This document shows, one piece after another, positions 1 to 2,993 of a stretch of DNA of 14,304 nucleotides. Origin of the DNA: a virus. Taxonomy: Duplodnaviria; Heunggongvirae; Uroviricota; Caudoviricetes. The DNA lies in the IMG/VR virus record IMGVR_UViG_2681813271_000007. One strand, given 5' to 3'. The notes beneath the pieces are model-generated. The model ran no database searches, had not been told where the DNA came from, and worked only from the letters and a program-made list of their open reading frames with translations. Numbering within the stretch: position 1 is the first letter of the stretch; each line of letters starts with the position of its first letter. The position numbers were made by a program, and so were the translations under genes.

Positions 1-90
1 CTCAGCAAATGATACATTGCCATGAGATAAATCATTACGATGTTGTTTAACAGTGGCTAATTTTTCACCATGTTTAGTGTGAGTGTTCAT
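1..90 (-). CDS. hypothetical small protein, 5' part only (continues beyond left edge); fourth gene of cargo cassette
   Basis: ATG at 90..88 on minus strand, in-frame stop one codon upstream; hand translation MNTHTKHGEKLATVKQHRNDLSHGNVSFAE open to window edge; overlaps end of upstream gene by 17 nt; AT-rich like neighbours; no clear SD. Confidence 0.35.
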   Translation of the reverse strand, partial: MNTHTKHGEKLATVKQHRNDLSHGNVSFAE

Positions 91-397
91 TTTTTAATCT
101 TTTTAATATTTCTGACCTGAGATTTTTCCTGAGTTTGTCAAATTCTACGTTTCTATCATAAATAGTCTCATGAATAAGGCAGATAGCTTCTCTCATTGTT
201 GATTCAATGAGGTTATATAACAGTATATATACTGCTCCCTTTAGAGTTTTTCGTGATTGAGCAGTAATGGAGAACTTATGTTCTTTATCATCAGCTGATA
301 TCAGTTCTGCACCGGCATACTCAATAAATTTCAAAAGATCCAAATAGGCCAAGATCTCTCCTGACCTTTCGTCAAAATCCTCACGAAAACGATCCAT
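74..397 (-). CDS. hypothetical protein (107 aa), third gene of cargo cassette
   Basis: ORF in track; strong SD (AGAGGA) 6-7 nt upstream of ATG embedded in end of upstream gene; stop-1nt-start junction (TAACATG) suggests translational coupling; AT-rich; no domain recognised. Confidence 0.6.
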   Translation of the reverse strand: MDRFREDFDERSGEILAYLDLLKFIEYAGAELISADDKEHKFSITAQSRKTLKGAVYILLYNLIESTMREAICLIHETIYDRNVEFDKLRKNLRSEILKRLKNEHSH

Positions 398-398
398 G

Positions 399-722
399 TT
401 AATCCTCTAATAATTTATCCCGAACATATTCAATTCGTTCAATTACCTTCACGCGACTATTAGCTCCGTCGGAAGTGGTCAATCGTTTGAATTCTTCTGA
501 GCTTAGCCAATCTAAGTTCTTGGGAACAAGGTCAGGGACTTCACGTAATGCAAGTGCTGCGCCAACAGCGAGAGATTCGAATCTAACTCGAGGTGTAGAT
601 TTTGCAGTAATAGTTTTCTTGAATCCTGCTGGGAAATAGTTTTCAACAAAAGATAGAACATTAGCAAACTCTTGTTTCATTGAGTTTTGTTTAGTTTCGT
701 CTATATCTCGATTTTCTGACAT
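399..722 (-). CDS. hypothetical protein (107 aa), possibly the C-terminal continuation of the DUF262 protein
   Basis: ORF in track; weak/no SD; its frame stays open upstream of the ATG all the way into the N run at 755..793 (..HSVRDFLNDY-M..). Confidence 0.5.
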   Translation of the reverse strand: MSENRDIDETKQNSMKQEFANVLSFVENYFPAGFKKTITAKSTPRVRFESLAVGAALALREVPDLVPKNLDWLSSEEFKRLTTSDGANSRVKVIERIEYVRDKLLED

Positions 723-726
723 ATAG

Positions 727-1587
727 TCATTTAGAAAATCCCGTACGGAATGATNNNNNNNNNNNNNNNNNNNNNNNNNNNNNNNNNNNNNNNTTGTACT
801 TATCTACGTAGGCAAAGAATCTTAATGTAAATTCTAACCGTTCATCTCGTTTTTCTTTAGTCTGAGATAAAGGTGCTAATTCTTTAAATTTAGGTATTGT
901 TGAGCATGGCTTAATAACCTGTGTATATAAATTTGTTGAACCAAGTTCTGATCCNNNNNNNNNNNNNNNNNNNNNNNNNNNNNNNNNNNNNNNNNNNNNN
1001 NNGCCAGAGTTAATACGCTCAAAAAGATCTCTACGGGTTTCTTCATTGCATTTAGAACTCAATTCTATAACGCGGACAGGAATTCTCATGAAACGACGTT
1101 GACGTGATAATGGTAAATCTTGGAATTTGAAACCATTAAGGACGTCTAAAGATTTCAGGTCTTGTAAAACTAATTCATTTTGGATAAAAGCGTGTATAGT
1201 CCTAACTCGTTGTGAGCCATCAACAATCTCAATTCGCCCATCTAAATCGGGATCTTCGGAGAGAACATCTGCTATAAATATATATGGTATAGGAAAACCC
1301 AAAATCAAAGACTCTATCAATTTTGATTGTCTTTTTTCACTCCAAACAAAATCCCTTTGATAATCAGGAACAAAGAGTTCGTTAGTATCATCCTCTAATC
1401 CGTTATGATACTTATTAACTAATAACTCAACGGTAAATTCTTTGGTCTCAAAATCCACATCCTTTTGCTCAGCACGAATTTGCTCTTCAGCGTTTTGCTT
1501 TATCACCTCTAGCTGAGCAAGCAACTCTGCTCTTTTCTTGGCATTATCTTCATTTTCTAGTTGAGATTTTAAATCAATAATGTCCAT
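727..1587 (-). CDS. DUF262 / ParB-like domain protein (GmrS-like N-terminal domain family), interrupted by two N runs
   Basis: Translation contains VPDYQRDFVW ... LILGFPIPYIFI ... IEIVDGSQRVRTIHAF ... FERINSG, matching the hallmark YQR..W and DGQQR-type motifs of DUF262; preceded by ~45 aa charged coiled-coil-like N-terminus; first ATG at 1587 with AAGGGAA SD 8 nt upstream (track ORF extends to TTG at 1605). Confidence 0.7.
   Translation of the reverse strand: MDIIDLKSQLENEDNAKKRAELLAQLEVIKQNAEEQIRAEQKDVDFETKEFTVELLVNKYHNGLEDDTNELFVPDYQRDFVWSEKRQSKLIESLILGFPIPYIFIADVLSEDPDLDGRIEIVDGSQRVRTIHAFIQNELVLQDLKSLDVLNGFKFQDLPLSRQRRFMRIPVRVIELSSKCNEETRRDLFERINSGXXXXXXXXXXXXXXXXGSELGSTNLYTQVIKPCSTIPKFKELAPLSQTKEKRDERLEFTLRFFAYVDKYXXXXXXXXXXXXXXSFRTGFSK
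755..793. other. run of 39 N (masked or unsequenced bases) inside DUF262 gene
   Basis: seen directly in sequence. Confidence 1.
955..1002. other. run of 48 N (masked or unsequenced bases) inside DUF262 gene
   Basis: seen directly in sequence. Confidence 1.
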
Positions 1588-1605
1588 GTCTAGTTCCCTT
1601 AACAA

Positions 1606-1772
1606 GTGTTAAAAATTGAAGCGGATAGCATACCGCATAGATCATGAAAAATGCCATCATGTGCATGGATTTGCATGCGTCAGAAGTCGCTTTTATTGTT
1701 AGTTATCACTAGCGCTGGCGTGCTCTTGGAGTGTTCATGCAACTGCATTAAAACCGCCCCATGAAGCGGGCG
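1606..1772 (-). promoter_or_regulatory. putative promoter/operator region of the cargo operon
   Basis: Non-coding gap between cos and first cargo gene; contains direct repeat TGCATG..TGCATG (1662..1677) and several CATG motifs; no convincing sigma70 -35/-10 pair found by eye. Confidence 0.25.
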
Positions 1773-1791
1773 GGCGAGGCGGGGAAAGCAC
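1773..1791. other. cos: P2-type cos site (19-nt cohesive end)
   Basis: Sequence GGCGAGGCGGGGAAAGCAC matches my recollection of the P2 cohesive end; lies just beyond the 3' end of portal gene Q as in P2. Confidence 0.6.
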
Positions 1792-1931
1792 TGCGCGCTG
1801 GCGGTGGTGCTGATTTTATTTTCCAGCGTCTCAGCGCGTCGTGACGGCGCTTAGTCTGCCCGTTGGGCGTTGGTGTGTCTGCGGGATTTTTTGTGCGGTG
1901 ATGAGCGTGTGAGGGCGTGATGGCGGGGTGT

Positions 1932-1953
1932 AAAAAAGCCGCCCGCAGGCGGC
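1932..1953 (-). terminator. rho-independent terminator downstream of Q
   Basis: GCCGCC-cgca-GGCGGC hairpin (1938..1953) followed on the minus strand by TTTTTT (1932..1937), 5 nt after the Q stop codon. Confidence 0.6.
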
Positions 1954-1958
1954 GATGT

Positions 1959-2993
1959 TCAGCCGTTGTCAGTGTCCAGTGAGTAGTTTTTAAAGCGGAT
2001 GACCTCCTGACCGAGCCAGCCGTTTATCTCGCGGATCCTGTCCTGTAACGGGATAAGCTCATTGCGGACAAAGACCTTTGCCACTTTCTCAATATCACCC
2101 AGCGACCCGACGTTCTCCGGCTTGCCCCCCATCAACTGAAAGGGGATGCGGTGCGCGTCCAGCAGGTCAGCGGCGCTGGCTTTTTTGATATTAAAAAAAT
2201 CGTCCTTCGTTGCCACTTCACTGAGCGGGATAATTTTAATGCCGTCGGCTTTCCCCTGTGGGGCATAGAGAAACAGATTTTTAAAGTTATTGCGGCCTTT
2301 CGACTTAACCATGTTTTCGCGAAGCATTTCGATATCGTTGCGATCCTGCACGGCATCGGTGACGTACATGATGTATCCGGCATGTGCGCCGTTTTCGTAA
2401 TACTTGCGGCGGAACAGCGTGGCCGACTCATTCAGCCATGCAGAGTTAAGGGCGCTGAGATATTCCGGCAGGCCGTACAGCTCCTGATTAATATCAGGCT
2501 CCAGCAGGTGAAACACGGAGCCGGGCGCGAAGGCTGTCGGCTCGTTGAAGGACGGCACCCACCAGTAAACATCCTCCTCCACGCCACGACGGGTATATTT
2601 GGCCGGTGAGGTTTCCAGTCTGATGACCTTACCGGTGGTGCTGTAACGCTTTTCCAGAAACGCATTACCGAACACCAGAAAATCCAGCACAAAACGGCTG
2701 AAATCCTGCTGGGAAAGCCACGGGTGCGGGATAAACGTTGAAGCCAGAATATTACGTTTGACGTAAATCGGTGAGCTGTGATGCACGGCAGCACGCAGGC
2801 TTTTTGCCAGACCGGTAAAGCTGACCGGCGGCTCATACCATCTGCCGTTACTGATGCACTCGACGTAATCCAGAATGTCACGGCGGTCGAGTACCGGCAC
2901 CGGCTCACCAAAGGTGAATGCTTCCATTTTCGGGGCGCTGGCGGTGATTGTTTTTGCCGCAGGTCGCGGTGTTTTCCCTTTTTTCTTGCTCAT
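1959..2993 (-). CDS. Q: portal (capsid portal) protein, P2 gpQ
   Basis: 344 aa, N-terminus MSKKKGKTPRPAAK.., size and position match P2 Q; start overlaps P stop (TGATG). Confidence 0.93.
   Translation of the reverse strand: MSKKKGKTPRPAAKTITASAPKMEAFTFGEPVPVLDRRDILDYVECISNGRWYEPPVSFTGLAKSLRAAVHHSSPIYVKRNILASTFIPHPWLSQQDFSRFVLDFLVFGNAFLEKRYSTTGKVIRLETSPAKYTRRGVEEDVYWWVPSFNEPTAFAPGSVFHLLEPDINQELYGLPEYLSALNSAWLNESATLFRRKYYENGAHAGYIMYVTDAVQDRNDIEMLRENMVKSKGRNNFKNLFLYAPQGKADGIKIIPLSEVATKDDFFNIKKASAADLLDAHRIPFQLMGGKPENVGSLGDIEKVAKVFVRNELIPLQDRIREINGWLGQEVIRFKNYSLDTDNG

What the first reader, a model, noticed from the sequence alone, without database searches (positions are those of the whole stretch)
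723..793. Gene boundary between the DUF262 protein and the next ORF is ambiguous because of the N run
After the 39-nt N run the DUF262 frame continues for only 8 codons (SFRTGFSK-stop), while the frame of the next ORF is open from the N run through its ATG (..HSVRDFLNDY-M-SENRD..) and that ORF lacks a good ribosome-binding site. If the N run does not represent exactly 39 real bases, the two ORFs may be one protein of about 400 aa, a typical length for DUF262-family proteins. If it does, they are separate genes.
Basis: seen in the sequence. Interest (0 to 1): 0.4.

Follow-up and report, generated by a model that had tools for sequence, protein, structure and literature searches.

The report
One gene split by scaffold gaps
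The two open reading frames are one ordinary 380-residue DUF262 (ParB-like) defence gene of a P2-like prophage in Shigella sonnei, split only because two runs of N in the draft assembly have the wrong length.

Summary
The genes lie on the minus strand. A 39-N run (755..793) is followed by 8 codons and a stop in the DUF262 frame. The frame of the next ORF is open from the N run to its ATG (722), which has no ribosome-binding site.

The window is the whole contig CXCM01000103.1 of S. sonnei assembly GCA_001256555.1, and the deposited record carries the same N runs. Two independent assemblies of the same allele are 100% identical at all resolved bases. They have 8 nt (GAACTTTG) in place of the 39 N and 33 nt in place of the 48 N (955..1002). 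Eight bases restore the frame and give a 1143-nt, 380-aa CDS (1587..399). The 120 best homologues are 378-395 aa and none of 13 aligned shows an indel at either site. The "start" Met is internal residue 274.

The gene is paired with a MAE_28990-family HEPN nuclease gene and, in relatives, a C5 cytosine methyltransferase gene. It sits 186 nt from the P2 cos site, in the known gpA-gpQ defence hotspot. This is an assembly artefact in an already annotated gene, so interest is low. A 161-nt frameshifting gap in the HEPN gene of this contig remains unexplained.

The parts
399..1587 (-). Single DUF262 / ParB-like (NsnA-like, PD-T4-2_A-like) gene. As deposited it is broken into a 286-aa and a 107-aa ORF. 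The repaired length is 1143 nt = 380 aa.
   Evidence: Replacing the N runs with the 33 nt and 8 nt of L087 gives one ORF of 380 codons with a single stop. Pfam GmrSD_N PF03235, E 5e-24 to 5e-26. PADLOC NsnA 2e-54 over the full length and PD-T4-2_A 5e-35. It is annotated as one 380-aa CDS in E. coli relatives.
755..793 (.). Scaffold gap A: 39 N that stand for 8 real bases (GAACTTTG on the coding strand). It causes the apparent frame change.
   Evidence: Alignments A1, A3: L001, L002, L005 and L087 all have 8 nt here. The homologues have KNFD/xxFD with no length variation.
955..1002 (.). Scaffold gap B: 48 N that stand for 33 real bases (coding for SDILKDMEVRK). It is frame-neutral.
   Evidence: All 13 homologues have 11 residues here.
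727..729 (-). Spurious stop codon (TGA), read only because the 39-N run keeps the wrong frame.
   Evidence: It is out of frame in the repaired gene.
720..722 (-). Apparent start of the second ORF. It is really internal Met274 of the 380-aa protein.
   Evidence: There is no Shine-Dalgarno. This column is M or L in the homologues and lies inside a conserved block. In the AF2 model the junction lies in a short turn between helices 244-261 and 266-276.
1..397 (-). 5' part of the MAE_28990-family HEPN nuclease gene. It lies 1 nt after the DUF262 stop and runs off the contig end. It lacks 161 nt between window 87 and 86, which shifts the frame (stop at 76..74) and puts the Rx4H motif (HRNDLSHG, about 45..22) out of frame.
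   Evidence: Pfam HEPN_MAE_28990. Alignments. R174 and H179 are invariant in 80 homologues and the deletion covers codons about 105-158. The gene is an intact 226 aa in the same-allele S. sonnei contig L087.
1773..1791 (+). P2-type cos site (19-nt cohesive end GGCGAGGCGGGGAAAGCAC). It marks the cos-proximal cargo hotspot.
   Evidence: It is identical to the annotated cosL of phage P2 NC_001895.
1959..2993 (-). P2-like portal gene Q, the conserved border of the hotspot.
   Evidence: Pfam Phage_portal in the source record's gene calls. Annotated as phage portal protein in relatives.

Best explanation
The apparent gene boundary is an assembly artefact. The window is a scaffolded draft contig of Shigella sonnei. 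Two unresolved stretches inside an AT-rich prophage cargo gene were filled with N runs whose lengths (39 and 48) are estimates, not base counts. The real stretches are 8 and 33 nt. Because 39 is 0 mod 3 and 8 is 2 mod 3, the 39-N run makes the reading frame appear to shift. This creates a false stop after 8 codons and promotes internal Met274 to a false start. The real gene (1587..399, minus strand) encodes one 380-aa protein. It has an N-terminal ParB-like DUF262 NTPase domain with an intact DGSQR motif and a C-terminal helical domain of the kind called ParBDB in NsnA. This much is shown.

The following is inferred. The gene is the first of a two-gene operon with a HEPN (Rx4H) nuclease, and across many phyla the pair is tightly linked to a C5 cytosine methyltransferase. 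The most likely function is a methylation-linked anti-phage module carried in the P2 gpA-gpQ hotspot. In this model the methyltransferase marks self DNA, the DUF262 protein binds and senses foreign (probably unmethylated) DNA using NTP hydrolysis, and it then licenses the HEPN nuclease (probably an RNase) to stop the infection. I put about 0.55 on that mechanism, and 0.95 on the single-gene reading.
For: (1) The source record GCA_001256555.1 CXCM01000103.1 carries the same N runs.
(2) L087 (S. sonnei GCA_900160255.1) is 100% identical to the window at all 1477 resolved nt from 1559 to 1. It has 8 nt and 33 nt at the two runs. L005 (E. coli GCA_051713005.1) is also identical and also has 8 nt at run A.
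(3) E. coli relatives at 98% and 88% identity carry one 1143-nt CDS.
(4) The 120 best homologues are 378-395 aa with 93-100% coverage. There is no indel at either site in 13 homologues down to 55% identity. S. sonnei proteins of the same allele are continuous across both sites.
(7) The cargo has 27-39% GC against 52-60% in the phage backbone, which is a plausible reason for poor short-read coverage.
(8) For the function: a HEPN homologue lies directly downstream in 80 of 82 loci and a C5-MTase is adjacent in 72 of 82. Nine of the ten loci without an MTase are cut by a contig end. R174 and H179 of the HEPN are invariant. The same ParB + methylase operon was noted for MAE_28990 HEPN in PMC3710099. 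PD-T4-2, described as 'DUF262, HEPN', is experimentally validated (PMC9519451). The P2 gpA-gpQ hotspot is described in PMC9122126 and PMC13586616.
Against: The unresolved bases of this particular isolate have not been seen, so a private mutation inside either gap cannot be excluded. The same contig has a frameshifting 161-nt gap in the neighbouring HEPN gene, so the module might be decaying in this strain. That the N runs come from a scaffolder's gap-size estimate is my inference from their odd lengths, since the assembly method was not available. For the function there is no experiment on this family. The HEPN gives no hit to any PADLOC model, including PD-T4-2_B. The methyltransferase side of the locus is beyond the contig end in the window.
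Confidence: 0.95

Rival explanations
1. The 39 N stand for exactly 39 real bases, so this isolate really has two separate genes: a 286-aa DUF262 protein and a 107-aa downstream protein.
For: As deposited, the gene caller produced 286-aa and 107-aa products. The 107-aa product is also called in a second assembly, L005.
Against: In L005 the 107-aa call arises only because the 5' 50 nt of that 717-nt contig are unrelated sequence with an in-frame TAA. Its sequence across the gap site is continuous with 8 nt. A real 31-nt insertion at run A and a 15-nt insertion at run B, both falling exactly on unresolved stretches of an otherwise 100% identical allele, is very unlikely. ATG 722 has no RBS. No homologue is split here.
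Confidence: 0.01
2. The gene is one gene by descent but is truly broken (a pseudogene) in this isolate. A private indel or rearrangement lies inside one of the unresolved stretches and is the reason the assembler failed there.
For: The adjacent HEPN gene in the same contig lacks 161 nt and is frameshifted. Other S. sonnei and E. coli assemblies show this gene with foreign sequence at its 5' end (L087 and L005), so disruption of the module does occur.
Against: Every resolved base from 1559 to 1 is identical to the intact allele. Both gaps lie in low-GC sequence, where short-read coverage is typically poor. Many draft assemblies break inside these two genes (partial products), which points to a technical rather than biological cause.
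Confidence: 0.04

Closest known systems
RefSeq DUF262 domain-containing protein WP_000351260.1 / WP_021539397.1 with the MAE_28990/MAE_18760 family HEPN-like nuclease, in E. coli P2-like prophages
   Same: The locus is the same: portal Q, cos, DUF262, HEPN. DNA identity is 98% and 88%. The DUF262 CDS is 1143 nt and the HEPN gene starts 1 nt after its stop.
   Different: In the window the gene is interrupted by two mis-sized N runs, the HEPN gene lacks 161 nt, and the contig ends before the methyltransferase.
MAE_28990 HEPN operons with a ParB nuclease and a DNA methylase (Anantharaman et al. 2013, PMC3710099)
   Same: The HEPN family is the same (Pfam PF18737) and the gene neighbourhood is the same: ParB/DUF262 plus C5-MTase in 72 of 82 loci.
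   Different: That description is only computational and gives no mechanism or phenotype. In the P2/gammaproteobacterial version the MTase is downstream and convergent. In most other phyla it is upstream in the same operon.
PD-T4-2 (Vassallo et al. 2022, E. coli ECOR65)
   Same: It is a two-gene DUF262 + HEPN anti-phage system. The PD-T4-2_A model matches the window's protein family at 5e-35 over nearly its whole length. The HEPN here also matches Pfam HEPN_RiboL-PSP (PF18735), the family reported for PD-T4-2.
   Different: The HEPN gives no hit to PD-T4-2_B or any other PADLOC model. PD-T4-2 spans 1540 bp against 1825 bp here. A linked methyltransferase is not reported for PD-T4-2 in the texts read.
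Menshen NsnA (Millman 2022; Li et al. 2025, PMC12065111)
   Same: This is the best PADLOC match (NsnA 2e-54, residues 25-374 against profile 23-376 of 385). The architecture is the same: ParB-DUF262 followed by a helical DNA-binding ParBDB domain.
   Different: There is no NsnB ABC-ATPase and no NsnC effector in the locus. The partner is a HEPN nuclease.
GmrSD / BrxU / SspE type IV restriction enzymes
   Different: There is no C-terminal DUF1524 HNH nuclease domain. Nuclease activity would be supplied in trans by the HEPN protein.

Membership tests
DUF262 / GmrSD_N (Pfam PF03235) proteins | Match to PF03235 above the gathering score | tested here: met
   85.8 bits for the window ORF1 and 92.6 bits for the full-length relative, against a cut-off of 33.2.
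DUF262 / GmrSD_N (Pfam PF03235) proteins | DGQQR-type NTPase motif | tested here: met
   D123-G-S-Q-R127 is invariant in 14 and in 60 homologues. The role of the motif is taken from the literature passage.
GmrSD type IV restriction enzyme | C-terminal DUF1524 (HNH) nuclease domain in the same chain | tested here: not met
   No Pfam hit other than GmrSD_N at E <= 0.1. The protein ends at residue 380 with an all-helical C-terminal region.
PD-T4-2 | Gene A: DUF262 protein matching PD-T4-2_A | tested here: met
   PADLOC PDLC04027, E 5e-35, profile positions 55-355 of 363.
PD-T4-2 | Gene B: HEPN protein matching PD-T4-2_B | tested here: not met
   No PADLOC family at E <= 0.1 or <= 0.01 for the HEPN protein. 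It does match Pfam PF18735 at 36.0 bits (cut-off 28.4), so it is a related but distinct HEPN.
PD-T4-2 | Protection against phage T4 | not testable with these tools
   This needs a plaque assay.
Menshen (NsnABC) | NsnA-like ParB-DUF262 + ParBDB protein | tested here: met
   PADLOC NsnA 2e-54 over the full length.
Menshen (NsnABC) | Adjacent NsnB ABC-ATPase and NsnC effector | tested here: not met
   In the relatives the downstream genes are a HEPN nuclease and a C5-MTase followed by phage gpA. In the window the gene after DUF262 is the HEPN.
MAE_28990 HEPN - ParB - methylase operon (PMC3710099) | HEPN of the MAE_28990 family with a conserved Rx4-6H motif | tested here: met
   PF18737 at 103 bits for the relative and 39 bits for the truncated window ORF. 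R174 and H179 are invariant in 80 homologues. In the window itself the motif is out of frame because of the 161-nt gap.
MAE_28990 HEPN - ParB - methylase operon (PMC3710099) | Adjacent ParB-like gene and DNA methylase gene | tested here: inconclusive
   The ParB/DUF262 gene is adjacent in the window. The methylase side lies beyond the contig end. It is present in same-allele L087 (PF00145), in L001 and L002, and in 72 of 82 loci.
Cargo of the P2-like gpA-gpQ (cos-proximal) defence hotspot | Location between portal gene Q / cos and replication gene A of a P2-like prophage | tested here: met
   cos is at 1773..1791 and is identical to P2 cosL. Portal Q is at 1959..2993. The gpA flank is seen in L087, L001 and L002. 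The hotspot is described in PMC9122126 and PMC13586616.

The most novel reading that the evidence does not exclude
The C5-methyltransferase / DUF262 (ParB-like NTPase + DNA-binding domain) / MAE_28990-HEPN triad is a distinct, experimentally untested, methylation-linked defence system. It would be a hybrid of restriction-modification and abortive infection in which a ParB-like sensor of unmethylated DNA licenses a HEPN RNase. It is conserved from Enterobacteriaceae to Bacteroidota, Planctomycetota, Acidobacteriota and Cyanobacteria, and is carried as cargo in the P2 cos-proximal hotspot. It is related to PD-T4-2 and Menshen NsnA but is not recognised by the 2023 PADLOC models.
Probability: 0.45. 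Interest if true: 0.5.

Novelty: already known. Interest (0 to 1): 0.12.

Why it matters
The main value is for annotation hygiene. The deposited S. sonnei record and derived protein databases carry three fragment "proteins" (286, 107 and 107 aa; CSP93692.1 and CSP93686.1 are two of them). These are pieces of two ordinary genes. N runs in scaffolded drafts should not be treated as exact lengths when calling frames.

There is a secondary point. The gene belongs to a widespread methyltransferase-DUF262-HEPN module that was noticed computationally in 2013. In the literature searched here it has no experimental characterisation. Its presence in the P2 defence hotspot makes the intact E. coli and S. 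sonnei versions convenient material for testing it.

Tried and rejected
(1) I searched 5.8 billion proteins with the 117-aa ORF2 stretch alone. This returned only fragments of 70-205 aa, which at first sight suggests a stand-alone small protein. I rejected that reading. Only 51 candidates were scored, most came from contigs of 0.3-6 kb, and the full-length query shows the family is uniformly 378-395 aa.

(2) I scanned genome contigs for the 161-nt deletion junction. There was no match, so the junction is not shared by any species-representative genome. The truncated 107-aa HEPN product exists only in the source contig.

(4) NCBIfam gave no family for either protein.

(5) The unrelated 5' 56 nt of L005 found nothing in E. 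coli complete genomes, so their origin is unresolved.

(6) I looked for a repeat that could explain the 161-nt loss. There is none at the boundaries, and microhomology is at most 1 nt.

(7) The promoter scan of 1..2000 found no more sites than in shuffled sequence and was not used.

(8) I considered that the N runs might be 1:1 masks. I rejected this because their lengths disagree with all resolved relatives and they are present in the NCBI record itself.

Full report
**Observation.** The coding strand is the minus strand. The window has exactly two N runs, 755..793 (39 N) and 955..1002 (48 N).
- From ATG 1587 the frame runs through both N runs. After the 39-N run it reads SFRTGFSK and then TGA (729..727).
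- In the frame of the next ORF the sequence from the N run reads HSVRDFLNDY-M-SENRD, with the ATG at 722 and the stop at 401..399.
- ATG 722 has no Shine-Dalgarno. ATG 1587 has AAGGGA and the following gene's ATG 397 has GAGGA.

**Source.** The window is the complete 14,304-nt contig CXCM01000103.1 of NCBI assembly GCA_001256555.1. Its proteins are named Shigella sonnei (CSP93686.1, CSP93692.1). The NCBI record carries the same two N runs, and the gene caller there produced products of 286, 107 and 107 aa.

**What the N runs stand for.**
- E. coli chromosomes with the same prophage locus (98% and 88% DNA identity) carry one DUF262 CDS of 1143 nt (380 aa). A 226-aa MAE_28990/MAE_18760-family HEPN-like nuclease gene follows 1 nt later.
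- In the alignment, the 39 N correspond to 8 nt (GAACTTTG) and the 48 N to 33 nt.
- Two independent assemblies carry exactly the window's allele.
  - L005 (E. coli GCA_051713005.1) is identical on both sides of the 39-N run, shares the window-specific SNPs, and has the 8 nt.
  - L087 (S. sonnei GCA_900160255.1, FUCR01000035.1) is identical to the window at all 1477 resolved bases from 1559 down to 1. It has 33 nt and 8 nt at the two sites.
- Joining the frames needs a gap length of 2 mod 3. Eight satisfies this and 39 does not.
- Substituting the two stretches gives a 1143-nt ORF of 380 codons with a single stop.

**Family evidence.**
- The 120 best homologues of the 380-aa protein are all 378-395 aa and cover 93-100% of it.
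- In an alignment of 13 homologues down to 55% identity, neither site shows any length variation: 11 residues (SDILKDMEVRK) at run B and 4 residues (KNFD) at run A.
- The residues just after run A are conserved, and the column of the false start is M or L (conservation over 60 sequences).
- S. sonnei proteins from other assemblies are identical to the window's allele and continuous across both sites.
- In 80 loci from species-representative genomes of many phyla, the match runs to the C-terminus in one piece.
- An AlphaFold2 model (pLDDT 88.3, pTM 0.78) places the junction in a short turn between helices 244-261 and 266-276 of the C-terminal helical region.

**Conclusion on the boundary.** The boundary is an artefact. 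There is one gene, 1587..399. The TGA at 729..727 is out of frame and Met 722 is internal residue 274.

**Likely cause.** The two cargo genes have 27-39% GC against 52-60% for the phage backbone. Many draft assemblies of S. sonnei, E. coli and Salmonella end or break inside these two genes (partial products). That the N lengths are scaffolder estimates is my inference, because the assembly method could not be read with these tools.

**What the gene is.**
- Pfam finds only GmrSD_N (DUF262) at residues 63-206, and no DUF1524.
- PADLOC's best models are Menshen NsnA (2e-54, full length) and PD-T4-2_A (5e-35).
- NsnA-type proteins are described as a ParB-DUF262 domain plus a ParBDB DNA-binding domain (PMC12065111). 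The window's second ORF is part of that second domain.
- The downstream gene is a HEPN of the MAE_28990 family (PF18737; it also passes PF18735). Its Rx4H residues R174 and H179 are invariant in 80 homologues. It matches no PADLOC model.

**Genomic context.**
- The P2 cohesive-end sequence lies at 1773..1791, 186 nt upstream of the DUF262 start, and portal gene Q follows at 1959..2993.
- In L087, L001 and L002 the pair is followed by a convergent C5 cytosine methyltransferase and then the replication gene A.
- This is the gpA-gpQ defence hotspot of P2-like phages (PMC9122126, PMC13586616).

**Conservation of the module.** Of the 82 loci examined, 80 have a HEPN homologue directly downstream (usually overlapping or within a few nt). 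In 72, a C5-MTase is adjacent. It is mostly upstream in the same operon, and downstream and convergent in the gammaproteobacterial/P2 branch. Nine of the ten loci without an MTase are cut by a contig end. [quoted passage not shown]

**Membership.**
- It is not GmrSD, because there is no DUF1524.
- It is not Menshen, because there is no NsnB or NsnC.
- PD-T4-2 ("DUF262, HEPN", ECOR65, 1540 bp, validated against T4) is the nearest experimentally supported relative. However, its B-gene model does not match here, so I file this as a PD-T4-2-like relative rather than a member.

**Mechanism (inferred).** The methyltransferase marks self DNA. The DUF262/ParBDB protein senses foreign DNA with NTP hydrolysis. 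It then licenses the HEPN nuclease. No experiment on this family was found.

**Other points.**
- The HEPN gene in the window lacks 161 nt between 87 and 86. This removes codons about 105-158 and shifts the frame, so the Rx4H motif is not translated.
- The same allele in L087 is intact.
- The junction occurs in no species-representative genome, and the truncated product occurs in no other contig.
- There is no repeat at the boundaries. The lowest GC of the operon (22-25%) lies at the left edge of the missing stretch, and the contig ends 86 nt further on.
- I cannot decide between a real private deletion and an unmarked mis-join.
- The stretch between the two N runs is also exactly 161 nt, which may or may not be a coincidence.

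**Verdict.** The feature is a scaffold-gap artefact in a gene already annotated as a single 380-aa DUF262 protein elsewhere. Interest is low. The underlying MTase-DUF262-HEPN module is a reasonable but separate subject for experiment.

Noticed in passing
window 86/87 (minus strand, inside the HEPN gene 397..1): 161 nt present in all relatives, including the 100%-identical S. sonnei allele L087, are missing, and no N marks the join. The frame shifts (stop at 76..74) and the invariant Rx4H motif (about 45..22) is out of frame. There is no repeat at the boundaries. The junction and the truncated product are unique to this contig. This is either a real private deletion or an unmarked mis-join.
   Followed up: partly
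window 794..954 versus the missing stretch at 86/87: The resolved island between the two N runs is exactly 161 nt, the same length as the stretch missing from the HEPN gene. This may be a signature of the assembler (a minimum node or contig size) or a coincidence.
   Followed up: no
window 1773..1791: The 19-nt P2 cohesive end (GGCGAGGCGGGGAAAGCAC) is identical to the annotated cosL of phage P2. The defence cargo therefore starts 186 nt from cos, at the right end of the packaged genome, where P2 itself carries old and tin.
   Followed up: yes
L006-L085 (80 species-representative loci), L001, L002, L087: The DUF262-HEPN pair is linked to a C5 cytosine methyltransferase in 72 of 82 loci across many phyla, with two layouts. 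In most phyla the order is MTase-DUF262-HEPN co-directional with overlapping stops and starts. In the gammaproteobacterial/P2 branch the MTase is downstream and convergent. Only L083 has full flanks and no MTase.
   Followed up: partly
L087:1-100 and L005:1-50: In two other assemblies of the same allele, the 5' part of the DUF262 gene is replaced by unrelated sequence at a contig end. L087 gives a product starting MGWQKCSGIKRSY instead of MDIIDLKSQ. L005 has an in-frame TAA, which is why the same 107-aa product is called there. These could be insertion or rearrangement junctions or chimeric contig ends. The L005 stretch has no match in complete E. coli genomes.
   Followed up: partly
protein cluster 1 (Salmonella enterica assemblies): Dozens of Salmonella draft contigs of about 104.7 kb end inside the HEPN gene, giving partial products of 84-114 aa. 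This is the same place where the window's 161-nt gap begins (codon 105). It suggests a spot that short-read assemblies systematically fail to cross.
   Followed up: no
L001 (NZ_CP116176.1 position 1); also hits H7 and H8: Several complete E. coli chromosome records begin exactly at the start codon of the P2 replication endonuclease gene A, so the prophage hotspot lies at 3.5-5.6 kb of the record. The chromosomes were presumably rotated to a 'replication' gene by an assembly tool.
   Followed up: no
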